Of a stretch of 64,000 bases of DNA, positions 32,287 through 49,605 are shown piece by piece. Where the stretch lies: positions 21,540 to 85,539 of the forward strand of contig JBHHVL010000002.1 in the NCBI GenBank assembly GCA_046754245.1. Direction: 5' to 3'. The translations under genes and the position numbers were made by a program. Origin of the DNA: Candidatus Binatia bacterium (GTDB lineage: Bacteria; Desulfobacterota; Binatia; UBA1149). Within the stretch, counting starts at the first letter, position 1. The number at the start of each line of letters is the position of its first letter. Below the pieces are notes generated by a model that did not search any database, was not told the DNA's origin, and saw nothing but the letters and a program-made list of their open reading frames with translations.

Positions 32287-33512
32287 TGCACCTCGGGTTC
32301 GTCGAAGGCACCGACGAACTCTTTTCCGTCGAGCCTGTCCATCACCGCACCGCCCGGGCGGTCTACGAGTTCCAGATTCACCGCGGCGTCGAGATCGTGG
32401 GTGCGAGACAGCGCCGCGATGCCTTCGTTGATCTTTGCCTTGAACTTGTTTCGTACCACAGCTGGCATTTTGTCCATCGGGAAGCCCTGGAAATAGACGC
32501 GCGCGTTCGCCGGGCCGCTCCACTCCACGGCGGCGATCTTGGGTCCGACTATGGGGTGGTCGAGTAGCAGGGCTTCGACGGAACGCTGGAACGGTGAACC
32601 GGAATTCGTGGAGGGGACCTTGCCCTGGCTGTTCGGCCGCTGCCCAGACGGCCTGGACGCGGGACGCCCTTCGGCCGCGGCGATCATGCCGTCGATCTTG
32701 TCACGCTGACTCGGGTCGTCCGTGAGTTCCCTGGCTCGCTGAAGGTTGCGTAGCGCGCCCTTGGTGTCCCCCTCGCTGTGAAGAATCAGGGCCAGGTTGT
32801 ACCAGGCCTGCATGAACTCGGGGTCGAGTTCTATGACCCGGTTGTAGACGGCTTTCGCCTCATCGAACTTGTCCTGGAACAGGAGCGCGGATCCGAGATC
32901 GGTAAGTACGGCCTCATCGTCGGCGTTCAGCTCGAGGTAGCGGCGGAACAGGGCTTCGGCGTCGGCGAAACGGCTGTTCTCGTACTCGAGGTTTCCCGAA
33001 AGGCGAATCGCTTCCGAATTATCGGCGTCGAGTTCGAGAACGTGCTCCAGTGCGCGCCGAGCGTCGGCGTAGTGCCGGCGATCGAACCGTCCGGCGCGAT
33101 ATCGGGCGCGACCGAGCTGCAACCAGGCCTTGGCATCGTCGGGGGCGTTTTCGGCCTTCTCGGTGAGTTCGTCCAGGAAGGCGATCACCTCCGCCGGGAG
33201 TTCGAGCGGCGGGTGATTCGCCGGAACCGCCGAGGGGTCGCCCATGGCTGCGTTGCCGGGGTTGCCGCTGACCGCTCTCACCGCCGTGGTGGGTCGAGAC
33301 CCGAGGTGGACGAGAACCGCGGCCCCGACGCTCGCGAAGAACACGAAAACCATCAGCGCCTGGGGCGGTACGGAGCGGCGAGCGGCCGCCGGGGTCGGGA
33401 GCCGCGGGCTATTGCCGACGGCGGCGCCGCAGCTGGGACAAAAGGAGGCCGGCCCGCCGAGAGCCGACCCACAAGTGCTACAATAGGAGTTCAGAGGCGA
33501 AGACGCGGTCAT
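32283..33512 (-). CDS. Zinc-ribbon / single-TM / TPR-repeat protein
   Basis: N-terminal [19 protein letters not shown], a TM helix ([17 protein letters not shown]), about 5 TPR repeats, and an unassigned C-terminal ~110 aa. Confidence 0.7.
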
Positions 33513-33653
33513 ATTTGCGCTACCTATCAGGGATTGGCCAAGGGTTTAAGCCCGCGCGGCGGCCAGAGCACCCGAAACAGGATCCTGCAGTCGGAATGCA
33601 GTATAATCTCAGCGACATTTCGCTCGATTAACACAAGGAAACAGCCTGGTTTT

Positions 33654-34772
33654 ATGAATGCCATCAAGAAAGCGTGGAACGGTAGCAATCCGAAAATTCG
33701 TTCGTCCGTCACCACCCTGATCAAGGGCGCACTCACGGTCGGTGCGTTCTACCTGTTACTCAGTCACAAGGTCACCGCCGACGACGGTACGGAGGTCACC
33801 ACGTTCGTGGCCATACGGCGCTACCTTCCCAACATCGACGCTTCGGTATTCTGGAGATTCGTCTTTCTGGCCACCGCCGTGAAATTTATAGGCATCATGG
33901 CGAGTATGTACCGCTGGACGTTGCTGCTCAAGGGCCAGGGCGTGGAGCTGCCGTTTTGGCACATCTTCGGGAGCTTCCTCATTGGACGTTTTCTCGGTAC
34001 CTTCCTGCCGTCTACGGTGGGTCTCGACGGCTATAAGCTCTATGACGCCGCTCGCTTCAGTCACCGCACCGTCGAAGCGACCGCGGCGACCGTCGTTGAG
34101 AAAGTGCTCGGGGTGGTGGGCATTTTCATCACCTTCCTCGTAGCCATGCCGTTCGGATTGTCCGTTCTAGGCAAGAACGCGGGCAAGGTCGCGATGCTCA
34201 CGGTGCCGATATCCCTCGGTGTGATCGTGGGGTTCTTCGCCATACTGTTCCAACCTGGGCTCGCTCGGTGGTTCATAGAGAATTTCCCGCTACCGGCTCG
34301 TCAACGCATCGCAGGATTCATCACGCGTGTATCCGACGCGGCGACGGCGTACAGCCAACACAAGATGGTTCTGGTCAATGCTGCCTTTCAGAGTTTTGTC
34401 GTGCATTTTACCACCGCCGCCATGTACTTCTTCACGGCCCTGGCGATTGGAGCTGTCGGTGCGAGCTTCTGGCAGGTGACCTTCGCGTCGTCGATCCAGA
34501 TCTTCGCGACGGTTGTCTCCCCCTTCACGATCGCCGGCGAAGGCGTACGCGAGATAGTGCAGTCTCTGTTGCTGGCGAAACACATGGGTACCTCGCAGTC
34601 GATCATATCGGCGGCTCTGGGGTTCTGGGCGGCTGAAGCGATGACCCTGACGGGCGCGTTCTTCTGGTGGGGCCGGAAGAGAGACTATCGGCCCGCCTGG
34701 GTACTGGTGGACGGCGAAGAGGTTGAAGCCCCCTTCGAGACTTCCGTGGAGAGTCGGATCAGCGCGGGCTGA
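33654..34772 (+). CDS. Flippase-like / lysylphosphatidylglycerol-synthase TM-region (UPF0104) membrane protein
   Basis: ATG at 33654 preceded by AAGGAAA. Polytopic. Has the family-typical segment FLIGRFLGTFLPSTVGLDGYKLYD. The upstream 290 aa of the ORF is antisense to the TPR gene. Confidence 0.7.
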   Translation: MNAIKKAWNGSNPKIRSSVTTLIKGALTVGAFYLLLSHKVTADDGTEVTTFVAIRRYLPNIDASVFWRFVFLATAVKFIGIMASMYRWTLLLKGQGVELPFWHIFGSFLIGRFLGTFLPSTVGLDGYKLYDAARFSHRTVEATAATVVEKVLGVVGIFITFLVAMPFGLSVLGKNAGKVAMLTVPISLGVIVGFFAILFQPGLARWFIENFPLPARQRIAGFITRVSDAATAYSQHKMVLVNAAFQSFVVHFTTAAMYFFTALAIGAVGASFWQVTFASSIQIFATVVSPFTIAGEGVREIVQSLLLAKHMGTSQSIISAALGFWAAEAMTLTGAFFWWGRKRDYRPAWVLVDGEEVEAPFETSVESRISAG

Positions 34773-34774
34773 TG

Positions 34775-34812
34775 AAAAAAGAGGCCGATTCCTCACGGAA
34801 TCGGCCTCTTGC
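34775..34812. terminator. Bidirectional rho-independent terminator
   Basis: Perfect 14-bp stem AAGAGGCCGATTCC-tcac-GGAATCGGCCTCTT (34779..34810). On the minus strand it is followed by a T6 run. Lies between the convergent flippase-like and DsbA genes. Confidence 0.8.
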
Positions 34813-34849
34813 GATCAGATACCTTCGGTCACAGAGGACCCTGCGGATA

Positions 34850-35614
34850 TCAGCCTTTCTTCTTCGCTTTGATGGCGTCCTCGATGAGGCCTTTCCAGAG
34901 TTCGAAGGAGCGGCCCGCGGGTTTCTTGCCGTTGATGAAGAAGGTCGGGGTACCGCGAACGCCGACACTGCCAGCCTGTTTCATCTCGTCGACGATCAGG
35001 GCCTGGGTCGACGGATCGTTCATGTCGCTTTTGAACTTTTCGACGTCGAGACCGATTTCACCCGCGACCTTGACGTAAAGGTCATCGCTCAGAGTGCGGT
35101 AGTTTTCGAACAGCTTATCGTGCATCTCCCAGAACTTGCCCTGCTTACCCGCAGCCACCGCCGCTTTGGCAGCGGGCATGGCGTTCTTGTGGAAGGGTAA
35201 GGGATAGTTCTTGAACACGAACTGTACGTCGTTGGGGAAGGCTTCGACTATCTTTTCTACCAAACTGGTAGCTTGAGCGCAGAACGGTCATTGAAAGTCC
35301 GAGAACTCGACCAGCGTCACGGTCGGTTTCTCGGCGCCCTTCGCAAACGAGTTGCCCTTGGGTATGGTGTAGACCTTGTTGGGGTCCTCGGCCGGTCTCG
35401 AGGGTCTAGCGGCGGCTGGGGCCTTCGCAAGGATCTGCTTCTGACCCGATTTGATACCATCGAGCTTCGAAATAATGTCTTTTTGCTGTGCCTGGATCTC
35501 GTCGACCTTCGTCTTGATATCGCTGATCTCCTGCGGGTCTACGCAGGCTGCGAAATAAAGCGCGAAGACGGCGACCAGCACAGACAAGCGTCTGGCGGTA
35601 CGTCCCGTTACCAT
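34850..35614 (-). CDS. DsbA-family thiol:disulfide oxidoreductase lipoprotein, putative selenoprotein (in-frame TGA at 35288..35290 read as Sec, UPFC motif)
   Basis: ORFs 35288..35614 and 34850..35263 share one frame. The joined sequence ...VTLVEFSDFQ-TGA-PFCAQATSLVEKIV...FKNYPLPFH...GKFWEMHDKLF...GTPTFFINGK is a complete DsbA-like domain with the TGA in place of the first CxxC Cys. Signal peptide plus lipobox (LYFAAC). AGGAGG lies 11 nt upstream of the ATG. Confidence 0.7.
35257..35271 (-). promoter_or_regulatory. Candidate bacterial SECIS hairpin
   Basis: On the mRNA, CUACCA-GUU-UGGUAG (6-bp stem, G-first apical loop) begins 16 nt after the UGA. Confidence 0.4.
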
Positions 35615-35637
35615 TAAATCCCTGTCCTCCTGGGTGT

Positions 35638-36753
35638 ATGGATAGATTCGATCCTATTCTTGCGACACCGTGGCCAAGTGTCAAGGCGGTGGCCGCGGGC
35701 AGGCGGGCGCAGGCACCCCCTTGTGGGCTTCGATCATGGCTGGTATTGAGAGCTGCAGTGGCCGAGGGGGAACCAGAATCGCGACGCGGGGGCGCCTTCG
35801 CGTGGAGGGGGTGGTCCGGCGTTCTCAAGATTTCGGTTTCGGTCTTGGCTGGATGGCTGCTCTGGATACAGGTCGAGGATCCCGCTGAGCTGCTCGAAGC
35901 GCTGCTACGTGTGGAACCGGCGATCGTGGGGTTCGCCGTATTGCTCTACCTGGTCGGTCAGGTCCTGACGGCCTACCGCTGGCAGGTTATCGCCGCCAAG
36001 GTCGGTTTTTCCAGTTCCTTTTCCGAGATCACCCGCTTCTACTTCATAGGCATGTTCTTCAATCTTTTCGGGCCGAGCACGCTGGGCGGCGACGTGGTAC
36101 GTTCCCTCTACCTCGGGCGAACCGATGGCCGGCGGGCGGTTGCGCTGAACACGGTGATCTTTGACCGGCTCTCCGGCTTGGGCATGCTCGTTGTCGTTGC
36201 GGTCGTGGCCATGCTGTTCTTCGGTAGCTTCAACTTGCCGGCGTGGGTGGTTTACCTGAGCTGGTCTCTGGGAATCTTGATGGTGGCGGGATGGTGGCTC
36301 GTTCCGGCCGTCACGCGGTTCACGCTCGCCGATGGCAACCGGGTGAGGACACTGGTGGAAGAGGAACTCGCCCCGTTTTGGTACGACGCCGCCTTGCTGT
36401 TCAAGGCCGCCTGGGTGTCGGTCGGATTCCACGTCCTGCAGATACTGACCTTGGTGCTACTCGGTAGCGCGCTCGGGCTCGAGCTCCCGTGGCAGTACTA
36501 CTTCGTCTTTCACCCTCTCGTGACGATCTTCTCGGCGTTGCCGATCAGCGTCGCCGGTCTTGGCATCCGCGAGATGGGCTACCTCTGGTTTCTGGCCCGT
36601 TCTCAGGTACCGAGCGAGCTGTCGGTCGCCTTCGGGCTTCTCTGGTTGACGGTGCTGCTCGCGTCGTCAGCGGCCGGTGGACTGGTATTCCTCTGGGATG
36701 ATTCGGGACTACCGTCTCTTCGTGGGCGCGAGGGCTTCCACGGCAGCGGCTGA
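35638..36753 (+). CDS. Flippase-like / LPG-synthase TM-region (UPF0104) membrane protein, second copy
   Basis: Polytopic, with the family-like segment FYFIGMFFNLFGPSTLGGDVVRSLYLG. The start is uncertain: ATG 35638 lies 23 nt from the divergent DsbA start, and in-frame TTG 35746 and GTG 35758 are alternatives. Confidence 0.65.
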   Translation: MDRFDPILATPWPSVKAVAAGRRAQAPPCGLRSWLVLRAAVAEGEPESRRGGAFAWRGWSGVLKISVSVLAGWLLWIQVEDPAELLEALLRVEPAIVGFAVLLYLVGQVLTAYRWQVIAAKVGFSSSFSEITRFYFIGMFFNLFGPSTLGGDVVRSLYLGRTDGRRAVALNTVIFDRLSGLGMLVVVAVVAMLFFGSFNLPAWVVYLSWSLGILMVAGWWLVPAVTRFTLADGNRVRTLVEEELAPFWYDAALLFKAAWVSVGFHVLQILTLVLLGSALGLELPWQYYFVFHPLVTIFSALPISVAGLGIREMGYLWFLARSQVPSELSVAFGLLWLTVLLASSAAGGLVFLWDDSGLPSLRGREGFHGSG

Positions 36754-36763
36754 GCCGGCGCCG

Positions 36764-47950: not shown

Positions 47951-49605
47951 ATGCGTAGGCTTGTCAGGTACGGGAGCTTCGCGCTTGGAGTCGGTCTGCT
48001 ATTGGTCTTTATCGGCTGTTCGGGTGGTGATTCGGGACCTAACGAAGACCCGCCAGCGGCCGGCGATGCCGTGCCGGCCTACGGTGACGCGCTGCTGGAG
48101 GGAAGCATAGGTGACGCTTCCAACCTGATTCCGATGCTCGCCGGCGACAGCTCCTCACACTCTGTAGGCGGCTTGATCTTTGATCCACTGCTCTCCTACG
48201 ACAAGAATCAGAGCGAGCTAGAGCCGCGGCTGGTAGAACGATGGGACGTCAGCGAAGACGGTCTCACCCTCACCTTTCATCTACGAACCGACGTGCGGTG
48301 GCAAGACGGTACCCCGTTTACGGCGGCCGACATCGAATTTGGGTTCCGGACGATTACCGCTCCCGGCACTATGACCGCCTACGCGGAGGATTACCGCCAG
48401 GTCGAGAGATTCGAGTTGCTGGACGCTCACAGTTTCCGGGTGAGGTACGAAAAACCGTTTGCCCCCGCGCTGGACAGCTGGGCGAGGAATCTCCTCGTAT
48501 TGCCGCGGCATGTTCTGGAGGGTCGGGATATCAACGAGGCTTCCGATTTTGCCCGCAAGCCTCTCGGCCTCGGCATGTACAAGCTCGAATCGTGGAAGAC
48601 GGGTACCGAGATCTCCCTCCTTTCCAATCACGATTACTACCGGGGGCGCCCGTACATAGAGAAGGTCGTCTACCGCATCATTCCGGATCAACAGACCCAG
48701 TTCCTCGAACTCAAATCGGGTGGTTTGGACCAGATGGGCCTGACGCCTCTCCAGTTCACCAGGCAGACCTCCACGGCGGATTTCGTACGTGACTTCAACA
48801 AGTACAAGTACCTTACGAATTCCTACACCTATCTGGGCTACAATCTGCGCAAGGAAATATTCAAGGATCGGCGCGTACGTCGGGCCCTGACCCACGCCGT
48901 CAACAAGCAAGAGATCGTCGACGCGGTACTGCTCGGACTCGGCGCGCCCACCAAGAGCCCCTACAAACCGGGGACCTACTGGATGAACGAGGAGGTTTCG
49001 GATCTTGTGTTCGATCCGGAAAAGGCGCGTTCTCTGCTCGCGGAGGCCGGTTGGGTGGACAGCGACGGAGACGGGGTGTTGGACAAGGACGGGGCGAGGT
49101 TCGAGTTCAAGATCATGACCAACCAGGGGAACGACCTCCGGCTCAAGACCGCGACGATCATCCAGCGTCGTTTCAAGGAAATCGGCGTCGACGCTTCGGT
49201 GAGGGTCTATGAGTGGTCGGCCTTCATCAACGACTTCGTAGACAAGCGAAAGTTTGACGCGGTCGTGCTCGGATGGAGCCTAGGGCTTGATCCGGATCAG
49301 TACGACATCTGGCATTCGTCGAAGACTTCAACTTCGTATCCTTCGCAAACTCCGAGGTTGACGAGCTGCTCGAAAAGGCGAGGCGATCCTTTGATCGTGC
49401 CGAACGCAAGAGACTCTACGATCGTTTTCAGGAGATATTGATCGAGGAACAACCATACACCTTCCTGTATGTGGCCGAGAGCCTGCCGGCCGTCCACCGC
49501 CGTTTTTTCGGCATCGAGCCCGCACCGGCTGGCATCGGCTACAATTTTGAAAAATGGTTCGTTCCGGCCTCCATGCAGAAGTACGACATCACTCAGGGGC
49601 CATGA
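47951..49605 (+). pseudogene. ABC transporter substrate-binding protein, family 5 (peptide/nickel), interrupted by a frameshift near 49316..49327
   Basis: The family-5 SBP sequence runs in one frame to ...DQYDIWHSSK. The conserved C-terminus FNFVSFANSEVDELLEKARRSFDRAERKRLYDRFQEIL...KWFVPASM continues in another frame to the TGA at 49603..49605. Confidence 0.7.

What the first reader, a model, noticed from the sequence alone, without database searches (positions are those of the whole stretch)
34850..35614. DsbA-family lipoprotein with TGA in place of the first CxxC cysteine: probable selenocysteine (UxxC) oxidoreductase
Two minus-strand ORFs (35288..35614 and 34850..35263) share one reading frame. 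They are separated only by a TGA (35288..35290) and 8 sense codons. Read through, the product is ...KGAEKPTVTLVEFSDFQ-[TGA]-PFCAQATSLVEKIVEAFPNDVQFVFKNYPLPFHKNAMPAAKAAVAAGKQGKFWEMHDKLF...GVRGTPTFFINGKKPAG. This is one uninterrupted DsbA-like thioredoxin-fold domain. Cys-containing family members read FSDFQ-C-PFC at this position, so the TGA sits exactly at the N-terminal redox cysteine. That is the classic signature of a Sec/Cys pair. Neither half-ORF would be a functional domain alone: the first lacks the helical insert and cis-Pro loop, and the second lacks the CxxC. The N-terminus has a signal peptide and lipobox (LYFAAC), which implies an exported selenoprotein. Gene callers would report two fragments or a pseudogene.
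Basis: partly seen in the sequence, partly recalled or inferred. Interest (0 to 1): 0.8.

Follow-up and report, generated by a model that had tools for sequence, protein, structure and literature searches.

The report
Selenocysteine DsbA-like lipoprotein gene
The apparent pair of gene fragments is almost certainly one intact gene for an exported disulfide-exchange enzyme whose active-site cysteine is replaced by selenocysteine. This is a known kind of selenoprotein that gene callers routinely split in two.

Summary
On the minus strand, ATG 35614 to TGA 34850 is one 254-codon frame. It is interrupted only by TGA 35290..35288, which falls on the first Cys of the CxxC motif of a DsbA/Thioredoxin_4 domain.

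The selenocysteine reading is well supported:
- The identical gene, TGA included, was assembled independently from four sequencing runs.
- 61 of 69 database relatives of the N-terminal fragment end exactly at ...SDFQ.
- All ten related loci with DNA carry TGA there, although their true stop codons vary.
- The sequence after the TGA is under the same purifying selection as the sequence before it (dN/dS about 0.2).
- A 6-7 bp hairpin with a GUU/GUC loop lies 22 nt after the UGA in all ten. It shows compensatory changes and is missing from Cys paralogues.

The main gap is that selA, selB, selC and selD could not be checked. None lies in the window, and the rest of the genome is not available.

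UxxC DsbA-like selenoproteins have been described since 2005, and a thioredoxin-like selenolipoprotein family (NF041057) exists. This is therefore a new member of a known kind. It belongs to a large clade attributed to Candidatus Binatia that public records annotate as fragments. Some relatives carry a Cys copy in tandem.

The parts
35656..35684 (-). sigma-70-like promoter candidate (TTGACA, 17-nt spacer, AAGAAT), about 40 nt upstream of the ATG
   Evidence: Consensus scan, 10 of 12 matches. This is a pattern match only.
35626..35631 (-). Shine-Dalgarno AGGAGG, 11 nt before the ATG at 35614
   Evidence: Read from the sequence. There is no comparable motif before the TTG at 35263.
34850..35614 (-). 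Complete selenoprotein gene: 254 codons including Sec109, with terminal stop TGA 34852..34850
   Evidence: Translation. A single Pfam domain spans the TGA. Orthologues carry the same in-frame TGA.
35543..35614 (-). Lipoprotein signal peptide and lipobox (residues 1-24, ...LYFAAC; Cys24 is the predicted lipidation site)
   Evidence: Pattern seen in the sequence. A lipobox Cys at about residue 22 is present in nearly all 69 N-terminal relatives. The whole-length sub-threshold match to the NF041057 (seleno)lipoprotein model starts at residue 14.
35420..35542 (-). N-terminal helical (coiled-coil-like) stalk, residues about 25-65, followed by a Pro/Ala-rich linker
   Evidence: The AlphaFold model of the 69%-identical Cys homologue P0001 has one long helix at residues 25-62. 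There is a weak hit to the Lpp/OprI alanine-zipper model (E 0.006). Foldseek gives full-length matches to trimeric ScsC and BcfH.
35288..35290 (-). In-frame UGA read as selenocysteine (residue 109; first position of the U-P-F-C redox motif)
   Evidence: The codon aligns to the first Cys of CxxC in 119 of the 120 top-scoring homologues; one lacks the motif. TGA is present at this column in all 10 Sec-form loci. 61 of 69 fragment clusters end at ...SDFQ.
35257..35271 (-). SECIS-like hairpin CUACCA-GUU-UGGUAG; the loop begins 22 nt after the UGA
   Evidence: z = -3.7 against shuffles. The 6 bp are paired in 10 of 10 orthologues, with compensatory changes (CG x8, GC x1, UA x1 at one pair). 92.9% of cells are paired, against 26-54% when the partner is slid. 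The hairpin is absent at the same place in Cys paralogues (z about 0).
34877..35350 (-). DsbA/Thioredoxin_4 catalytic domain (residues 89-246), including the UxxC motif, the helical insert and the cis-Pro loop (R-G-T222-P223)
   Evidence: Pfam PF13462 at 90.6 bits and PF01323 at 86.7 bits. PDB sequence matches to 3gyk, 4pwo, 7rgv, 4gxz and 3eu3. T222 and P223 are invariant. The model of the homologue has pLDDT above 95 over the domain.
34779..34810 (-). Intrinsic terminator (14-bp stem, 4-nt loop, T-run), about 40 nt after the stop codon
   Evidence: Terminator scan. The sequence is shown.

Best explanation
35614..34850 (minus strand) is one monocistronic gene for a membrane-anchored, exported DsbA/ScsC-type thiol-disulfide oxidoreductase. 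Its N-terminal, nucleophilic active-site residue is selenocysteine, giving the motif U109-P-F-C112.

Inferred from the standard bacterial mechanism: the hairpin at 35271..35257, whose GUU loop starts 22 nt after the UGA, recruits SelB-GTP-Sec-tRNA(Sec) to the ribosome. UGA 35290..35288 is then read as Sec rather than as a stop.

Inferred from sequence patterns: the precursor is exported, lipidated at Cys24 and anchored to a membrane facing the periplasm.

Inferred from a model of a Cys homologue: a long N-terminal helix holds the catalytic domain away from the membrane and may oligomerise, as in ScsC.

Inferred function: the U-x-x-C pair cycles between selenol/thiol and selenenylsulfide to exchange disulfides with envelope proteins. 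From general selenium chemistry, Sec should make exchange faster and the couple more reducing. That favours an isomerase/reductase (ScsC-like) role over a DsbA-like pure oxidase role.

Shown here: gene continuity, the position of the TGA, its evolutionary conservation, selection on the downstream part, and the conserved hairpin.
For: (1) One Pfam domain spans the TGA, and the TGA column is the first Cys of CxxC.

(2) The gene with its TGA is identical in four separately assembled runs.

(3) A search with the 108-aa fragment returned 69 clusters. 61 of them end exactly at [FWY]SDFQ. All but a few carry a lipobox.

(4) Ten loci with DNA, 51-89% identical in protein, all have TGA at the site. Their real stop codons are TGA, TAG or TAA. 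All keep 142-146 open codons after the site.

(5) Nei-Gojobori dN/dS downstream of the TGA has a median of 0.22 over 45 Sec-Sec pairs, equal to the upstream value. For pairs that include the window it is 0.10-0.22.

(6) The hairpin lies at a fixed position in 10 of 10 loci, has compensatory and G-U/A-U changes, and has a GUU/GUC loop. 0 of 500 shuffles reach the observed covariation score. Fold z-scores are -2.5 to -4.5 in Sec forms and about 0 in four Cys forms.

(7) There is no SD before the internal TTG, and gene callers pick different internal starts in different orthologues. The 8 codons between the TGA and the TTG, including P-F-C, are conserved.

(8) A promoter-like site, an SD and a strong terminator bracket the whole unit.

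(9) There is precedent for UxxC DsbA-like selenoproteins (PMC1088965, PMC1794560, PMC13188914) and for the NF041057 (seleno)lipoprotein family.
Against: No selA, selB or selD homologue and no tRNA-Sec lies in the window or in any of the fetched loci (about 1 Mb in total). Whether this genome can decode Sec is therefore untested.

No Rfam SECIS family matches, and bSECISearch was not available. The whole-region folding energy after the codon does not separate Sec forms from Cys forms; only the position-specific hairpin does.

dS is saturated (above 1), so the dN/dS values are approximate. The window's hairpin is short: 6 bp, -6.4 kcal/mol. No other in-frame-TGA gene that would independently show Sec use was found in the window.

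Confidence: 0.88

Rival explanations
1. Pseudogene. A recent TGC/TGT-to-TGA nonsense mutation killed a normal Cys-type DsbA-like gene, so only the 108-aa N-terminal stub is made.
For: TGC to TGA is a single-base change. All 119 motif-bearing proteins among the 120 top-scoring homologues, all called as single genes, have Cys. The Sec machinery was not found.
Against: The TGA is shared by at least 61 clusters and by 10 loci of 51-89% identity. It is never TAA or TAG. The downstream frame stays open and has dN/dS about 0.2. A covarying hairpin accompanies the TGA. The gene is identical in four assemblies.
Confidence: 0.02
2. Two real, separately translated genes: an Lpp-like coiled-coil lipoprotein of 108 aa, and a cytoplasmic CxxC-less DsbA-like fragment of 137 aa.
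For: Gene callers and public records annotate them this way, for example 'outer membrane murein-binding lipoprotein Lpp' or 'hypothetical protein' plus a DSBA fragment. There is a weak hit to the Lpp/OprI alanine-zipper model.
Against: There is no SD before the TTG, and the internal start is not conserved: called fragments are 131-137 aa. The 8 codons between the TGA and the TTG encode the conserved P-F-C-x-Q of the redox motif. The first fragment would end inside beta-strand 1 and the active-site turn of the domain. The second would lack a signal peptide and the catalytic motif.
Confidence: 0.03
3. The UGA is recoded, but not to selenocysteine. It could be read as Cys by a tRNA(Sec)-like Cys-accepting tRNA with a SelB paralogue, or read through at low level by a near-cognate tRNA such as Trp.
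For: Sec machinery genes were not observed. The UGA-C context is a leaky one.
Against: A SelB-type hairpin at canonical spacing with a G-first loop is conserved. Sec/Cys pairs at this exact site are the documented pattern for thioredoxin-fold selenoproteins. Genomes that keep a Cys paralogue next to the TGA copy (L166, L171, L172) would gain little from a second Cys form. Trp at the nucleophile position would be inactive.
Confidence: 0.05
4. Sequencing or assembly error at 35288..35290.
For: None beyond the prior that metagenome assemblies contain errors. A probable 1-nt frameshift elsewhere in the window, near 49325, shows that such errors or pseudogenes do occur here.
Against: Four independently assembled runs give the identical gene. 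Orthologues from unrelated samples have the same TGA.
Confidence: 0.01

Closest known systems
DsbA-like selenoprotein, 'form 1' (PF01323, UxxC). Zhang & Gladyshev 2005 Sargasso Sea (PMC1088965); Zhang et al. 2006 (PMC1794560; Anaeromyxobacter dehalogenans, Desulfovibrio desulfuricans, Desulfotomaculum reducens); 2026 review (PMC13188914)
   Same: It has the DSBA Pfam domain. Sec replaces the first Cys of CxxC (UxxC). Cys homologues are widespread. A bacterial SECIS hairpin with a G in the apical loop lies just downstream of the UGA.
   Different: The original Sargasso set was assigned to COG2761 (FrnE-like). The protein here scores best with Thioredoxin_4 (BdbD/ScsC-type) and carries a lipoprotein signal plus a long N-terminal helix. 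No sequence of a described member was available here, so direct orthology was not tested.
NCBIfam NF041057, Rcas_1661 family thioredoxin-like (seleno)lipoprotein (the 'DsbG-like' selenoprotein of Kryukov & Gladyshev 2004, as listed in PMC13188914)
   Same: The architecture is the same from end to end. The model aligns over positions 2-246 of 247 with protein residues 14-246: a lipoprotein N-terminus, an N-terminal region, and a thioredoxin-like domain with UxxC.
   Different: The score is 98.4 bits against a curated cut-off of 190, so it is a relative and not a member. This probably explains why NCBI records list the fragments as hypothetical proteins.
ScsC / BcfH / BdbD-type DsbA-family oxidoreductases (PDB 7rgv, 4xvw, 5idr, 4gxz, 7jve, 3eu3, 3gyk)
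   Same: It shares the DsbA fold with a CP[FY]C-type motif and a cis-Pro T-P loop. The sequence E-values are 5e-21 to 1e-10. The model of the Cys homologue superposes on these at TM 0.75-0.84, normalised to the target. An N-terminal helix precedes the domain, as in trimeric ScsC and BcfH.
   Different: Those proteins use Cys, are soluble periplasmic proteins rather than lipoproteins, and work with ScsB or DsbD-type partners. No such partner gene lies nearby here. Oligomerisation is only inferred.
Sec/Cys isoenzyme pairs (for example Sec and Cys hydrogenases and formate dehydrogenases of Methanococcus; from my own knowledge)
   Same: Some relatives (L166, L171, L172) carry a TGA copy and a Cys copy side by side.
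   Different: The window has only the Sec copy. No regulation by selenium has been shown.

Membership tests
Bacterial selenoprotein gene (UGA-Sec recoding) | In-frame UGA aligned with a redox-active Cys in homologues | tested here: met
   TGA 35290..35288 aligns with the first Cys of CxxC in the PDB, Pfam and homologue alignments.
Bacterial selenoprotein gene (UGA-Sec recoding) | Conservation of the UGA and of the coding sequence on both sides across orthologues | tested here: met
   61 of 69 fragment clusters end at SDFQ. 10 of 10 loci have TGA. dN/dS is about 0.22 both upstream and downstream.
Bacterial selenoprotein gene (UGA-Sec recoding) | bSECIS stem-loop immediately downstream (in the published bSECIS model, recalled from memory, the apical loop lies about 16-37 nt from the UGA and has a G at its start) | tested here: met
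   A 6-7 bp stem with a GUU/GUC loop starts 22 nt after the UGA. It is conserved with compensatory changes and is absent in Cys forms. bSECISearch itself was not run, and there was no Rfam hit.
Bacterial selenoprotein gene (UGA-Sec recoding) | selA, selB, selC (tRNA-Sec) and selD present in the genome | not testable with these tools
   None was found in the 64-kb window or in about 1 Mb of fetched loci.
Bacterial selenoprotein gene (UGA-Sec recoding) | Selenium actually incorporated (75Se labelling or mass spectrometry) | not testable with these tools
   This requires an experiment.
DsbA-like selenoprotein form 1 (PF01323, UxxC) | DSBA domain above Pfam's gathering score | tested here: met
   PF01323 scores 86.7 bits against a cut-off of 25.6. 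PF13462 scores 90.6 bits against 23.2.
DsbA-like selenoprotein form 1 (PF01323, UxxC) | UxxC redox motif at the N-terminus of helix alpha-1 | tested here: met
   The motif is U109-P-F-C112. In the model of the homologue the motif starts helix 108-123.
NF041057 Rcas_1661 family (seleno)lipoprotein | Score at or above the curated equivalog cut-off (190 bits) | tested here: not met
   The score is 98.4 bits, with E 4.7e-28 and full-length coverage.
Bacterial lipoprotein | Signal peptide ending in a lipobox with an invariant Cys | tested here: met
   The window has ...LYFAAC24. A lipobox Cys at about residue 22 is found in nearly all relatives. C24 is invariant in alignments A1 and A3. This is a pattern check only; no LipoP or SignalP was available.
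ScsC-type oligomeric disulfide isomerase | N-terminal oligomerisation helix and a dedicated membrane reductase partner (ScsB or DsbD-like) | tested here: inconclusive
   A long helix (residues 25-62) is predicted in the Cys homologue, which also gives full-length Foldseek matches to ScsC and BcfH. No ScsB, DsbD, DsbB or VKOR gene lies among the neighbours.

The most novel reading that the evidence does not exclude
The most novel reading not excluded has two parts. First, this could be a previously undescribed, lineage-wide clade of selenocysteine-containing, helix-stalked DsbA/ScsC-like lipoproteins in the group labelled Candidatus Binatia, hidden in databases as 'hypothetical' or 'Lpp' fragments. 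Second, in genomes that carry a Cys copy in tandem, the two copies could act as a selenium-dependent isoenzyme pair for envelope disulfide or copper-stress handling. On that reading, organisms like the one in the window keep only the Sec copy and depend on selenium for this function.
Probability: 0.25. Interest if true: 0.5.

Novelty: new member of a known kind. Interest (0 to 1): 0.35.

Why it matters
It corrects an annotation. Two 'genes' ('hypothetical' or 'Lpp-like' plus a truncated DsbA) are one selenoprotein. The same error affects at least 61 protein clusters in public databases, including NCBI MAG records, probably because the nearest curated selenoprotein model (NF041057) scores below its cut-off.

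It implies that organisms of this little-studied lineage, labelled Candidatus Binatia or 'Deltaproteobacteria' in MAG records, use selenocysteine in the cell envelope.

The side-by-side Sec and Cys copies in some relatives offer a natural system for asking what selenium adds to a DsbA-type active site.

The principle is not new: UxxC thioredoxin-fold selenoproteins, including exported ones, are textbook cases.

Tried and rejected
- **Whole-region folding energy.** The energy of the 48 nt after the codon does not differ between Sec and Cys sites (Mann-Whitney p 0.39). Folding 81 nt of the window gave z = +0.59. Only the position-specific hairpin is informative.
- **Rfam.** There were no hits at gathering scores over the whole window, and none relevant at E up to 10 on 35150..35350.
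- **Sec machinery.** ARAGORN found no tRNA in the window or in 11 loci. tblastn with E. coli SelA, SelB and SelD (taken from NC_000913.3) found nothing in the window. In the fetched loci it found only a SelB C-terminal fragment, in an unrelated Cys-type locus, L164.
- **A second selenoprotein gene in the window.** I screened 125 TGA-separated same-frame ORF pairs by codon-position GC and inspected 20 read-through translations. None looked like a domain interrupted by TGA. They were adjacent genes or antisense shadows.
- **Metagenome scan.** It was of little use for close orthologues, though it revealed two more Sec-type DsbA-like lineages.
- **Structure prediction.** I used the 69%-identical Cys homologue P0001 instead.
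- **PrdB/GrdB-like 'LVPV-TGA-PNC' fragment on L173.** It might have been an independent witness of Sec use in the clade, but the gene looks frameshifted, so I do not rely on it.
- **Literature.** Searches for Binatia or Binatota together with selenocysteine found nothing relevant.

Full report
**1. The observation**

On the minus strand, an ATG at 35614 is preceded by AGGAGG 11 nt upstream. It opens a frame that reaches TGA at 35290..35288 after 108 codons. The frame then continues through 8 sense codons into the 137-codon ORF that ORF lists start at TTG 35263, and it ends at TGA 34852..34850.

With Cys placed at the TGA, a single Thioredoxin_4 match covers residues 89-246 (profile positions 5-165 of 165, E 1.7e-25). 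A DSBA match scores E 2.2e-24. The domain therefore runs straight across the stop codon. In alignments with solved structures (3gyk, CPYC; 4pwo, CPFC) and with close homologues, the TGA column is the first Cys of CxxC. The N-terminus is a lipoprotein signal peptide (…LYFAAC24).

A promoter-like site (35684..35656) and a strong intrinsic terminator (34810..34779; 14-bp stem and a T-run) bracket the unit.

**2. Not an artefact**

The 137-aa fragment is found on contigs assembled separately from four sequencing runs: SRR29324588, SRR29324589, SRR29324590 and SRR29324594. In all four the whole 765-nt gene, TGA included, is identical to the window. Two of the contigs differ from the window by a few SNPs elsewhere.

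**3. Not a pseudogene**

The 120 best-scoring homologues of the C-substituted product, all called as single genes, come from MAGs labelled Candidatus Binatia, 'Deltaproteobacteria' and Candidatus Limnocylindrales. 119 of them have Cys at this column, and one lacks the motif.

Searching with the 108-aa N-terminal fragment returned 69 clusters. 61 of them are proteins of about 105-113 aa that end exactly at [F/W/Y]SDFQ, which means they stop at the same column. All but a few carry a lipobox.

I obtained DNA for ten such loci:
- the window;
- L005 and L006, from deep-ocean MAGs;
- L166, L171, L172 and L174;
- L169, on an 8.1-Mb contig;
- L170, on a 564-kb contig fully syntenic with the window;
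- L173, on a 721-kb contig.

Their proteins are 51-89% identical. All ten have TGA at the site, although their real stop codons are TGA, TAG or TAA. All keep 142-146 open, well-conserved codons after it.

Nei-Gojobori dN/dS for the part after the TGA has a median of 0.22 over 45 Sec-Sec pairs. For pairs that include the window it is 0.10-0.22. The median is the same for the part before the TGA, and the values are similar to those for Cys-Cys pairs. dS is saturated, so these values are approximate. A stop codon kept at one column across this much divergence, with a downstream half still under selection, is the standard comparative signature of a selenoprotein gene.

**4. The recoding signal**

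In all ten TGA forms, the codons for A-[T/A/S]-S-L-V form a hairpin at a fixed position. In the window it is CUACCA-GUU-UGGUAG (35271..35257). In relatives it reads CCGCCA-GUU-UGGUGG, GCGGCCA-GUC-UGGUCGC, and so on.

On the alignment:
- Six pairs are formed in 10 of 10 sequences.
- One pair shows CG x8, GC x1 and UA x1.
- Another pair alternates between GU and AU.
- 92.9% of cells are paired, against 26-54% when the partner is slid.
- 0 of 500 shuffles reach the observed covariation score.

The loop is GUU or GUC and starts 22 nt after the UGA. From memory of the published bacterial SECIS model, that model requires the apical loop to lie about 16-37 nt from the UGA with a G at its start, so this hairpin fits.

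Folded alone, the 26-nt segment has z = -3.7 in the window, -2.5 in L005 and -4.5 in L170. The homologous segment of four Cys-type genes has z about 0 and no hairpin. The Sec forms also use AGU (Ser) and UUG (Leu) here in GC-rich genomes, whereas the Cys forms have other residues and codons at these positions. That points to a constraint at the RNA level.

Two more distant Sec-type DsbA-like lineages turned up: WSDFQ-TGA-PFCKR and FSD[YF]Q-TGA-PYCA. Each has its own hairpin after the TGA, also with compensatory changes.

**5. What is missing**

The Sec machinery could not be checked:
- There is no tRNA in the window or in 11 related loci.
- There is no SelA, SelB or SelD homologue in the window. 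In about 1 Mb of fetched loci there is only a SelB C-terminal fragment, in an unrelated locus.
- No Rfam SECIS model matches.
- I found no second in-frame-TGA gene in the window.

The claim therefore rests on comparative evidence, which is strong. Direct proof needs the rest of the genome, or protein data.

**6. The protein and how it probably works**

An AlphaFold model of the 69%-identical Cys homologue P0001 has mean pLDDT 87, and above 95 over the catalytic domain. It shows a signal-anchor helix, one long helix (residues 25-62), a flexible linker, and a complete DsbA fold in which the CxxC motif starts helix alpha-1.

The best structural matches are 3gyk, BdbD, the Corynebacterium diphtheriae DsbA and TsdA, and Wolbachia DsbA. 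ScsC of Caulobacter and Proteus, and BcfH, match over the full length, N-terminal helix included. From memory of their published structures, ScsC and BcfH are trimers assembled through that helix.

I infer a lipid-anchored, possibly oligomeric, periplasm-facing thiol-disulfide oxidoreductase that uses a selenol/selenenylsulfide couple. General selenium chemistry (lower pKa, faster exchange, lower potential; my own knowledge) favours an isomerase/reductase role. This was not tested, and no ScsB, DsbD or DsbB-type partner gene lies nearby.

The gene sits between two PF03706 (LPG_synthase_TM) membrane-protein genes. These are followed by a TPR protein, a MoxR/CbbQ-type AAA protein and a protein of about 1050 aa. 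This synteny is conserved in L170, L172, L174, L166 and L171.

**7. Sec and Cys copies**

In L166, L171 and L172, a Cys-type copy follows the TGA copy directly.

In a neighbour-joining tree, the Sec and Cys forms are interleaved. The two copies from L166 pair as sisters. In L171 and L172 the Sec forms pair with each other and the Cys forms with each other, and these two pairs are sister groups. This pattern indicates repeated duplication, Sec/Cys switching, or gene conversion, and it matches the 'dynamic' Sec/Cys evolution described in PMC1794560.

The window, L005, L006, L169, L170, L173 and L174 carry only the Sec copy at the locus. The window has no other DsbA-like gene.

**8. Comparison with what is known**

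'DsbA-like protein' with UxxC was reported as a new selenoprotein family from the Sargasso Sea in 2005 (PMC1088965). It was then found in Anaeromyxobacter, Desulfovibrio and Desulfotomaculum (PMC1794560). A 2026 review lists it as 'DsbA-like protein form 1, PF01323, UxxC' (PMC13188914).

The same review equates the 'DsbG-like' selenoprotein with NCBIfam NF041057, the Rcas_1661 family thioredoxin-like (seleno)lipoprotein. The window protein aligns with that model over its full length but scores 98 bits against a cut-off of 190. It shares the architecture but is not a member by the curated threshold. That probably explains why NCBI and JGI records list the halves as 'hypothetical protein', 'Lpp' or 'protein-disulfide isomerase' fragments.

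No paper in the searchable library links Binatia or Binatota with selenocysteine.

**9. Verdict**

I put the probability that this is a real Sec-encoding gene at about 0.88.

The kind is known, so novelty is 'new member of a known kind' and interest is moderate. The useful products are:
- a corrected annotation for a large clade;
- evidence that this lineage uses selenocysteine in the envelope;
- natural tandem Sec/Cys pairs that could be studied.

Noticed in passing
window 49300-49440 (+): An SBP_bac_5-type ABC substrate-binding gene changes reading frame near 49320-49330. One frame reads '...DIWHSSK|TSTS...' and the next continues '...EDFNFVSFANSEVDELLEKARRSFDRAERKRLYDRFQEILIEEQPYTFLY...'. 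This looks like a 1-nt indel, so the gene is either a pseudogene or carries an assembly error.
   Followed up: partly
L173 18675-18914 (-): A PrdB/GrdB-family fragment ends '...AVCLVPV-TGA-PNCTR', a UxxC-type Sec site. It lies on the same 721-kb marine contig as a Sec-type DsbA orthologue. The gene appears to be frameshifted, so I did not use it as evidence for Sec decoding.
   Followed up: partly
L011 3367, L029 3277, L046 3292, L134 3277; L098 2780, L101 928: Two further lineages of DsbA-like genes (about 40-47% identical to the window protein) also have TGA at the first CxxC position. Their motifs are WSDFQ-TGA-PFCKR and FSD[YF]Q-TGA-PYCA. Each has its own downstream hairpin with compensatory changes.
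   Followed up: partly
L166 1174-2940; L171 10001-11660; L172 10001-11657: Tandem pairs: a TGA (Sec) copy is followed directly by a full-length Cys copy of the same lipoprotein. In the tree the Sec and Cys forms are interleaved rather than forming separate clades. This suggests repeated duplication, conversion or Sec/Cys switching.
   Followed up: partly
window 32700-36760, and L170, L172, L174, L166, L171: The Sec-DsbA gene lies between two PF03706 (LPG_synthase_TM) membrane-protein genes. A TPR protein, a MoxR/CbbQ AAA protein and a protein of about 1050 aa follow. The order is conserved across the clade; any functional link is unknown.
   Followed up: no
L164 5476-5937 (-): A SelB C-terminal-like ORF (33% identical to E. 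coli SelB residues 318-466) lies about 2 kb from a two-domain Cys-type DsbA gene in an unrelated metagenome contig.
   Followed up: no
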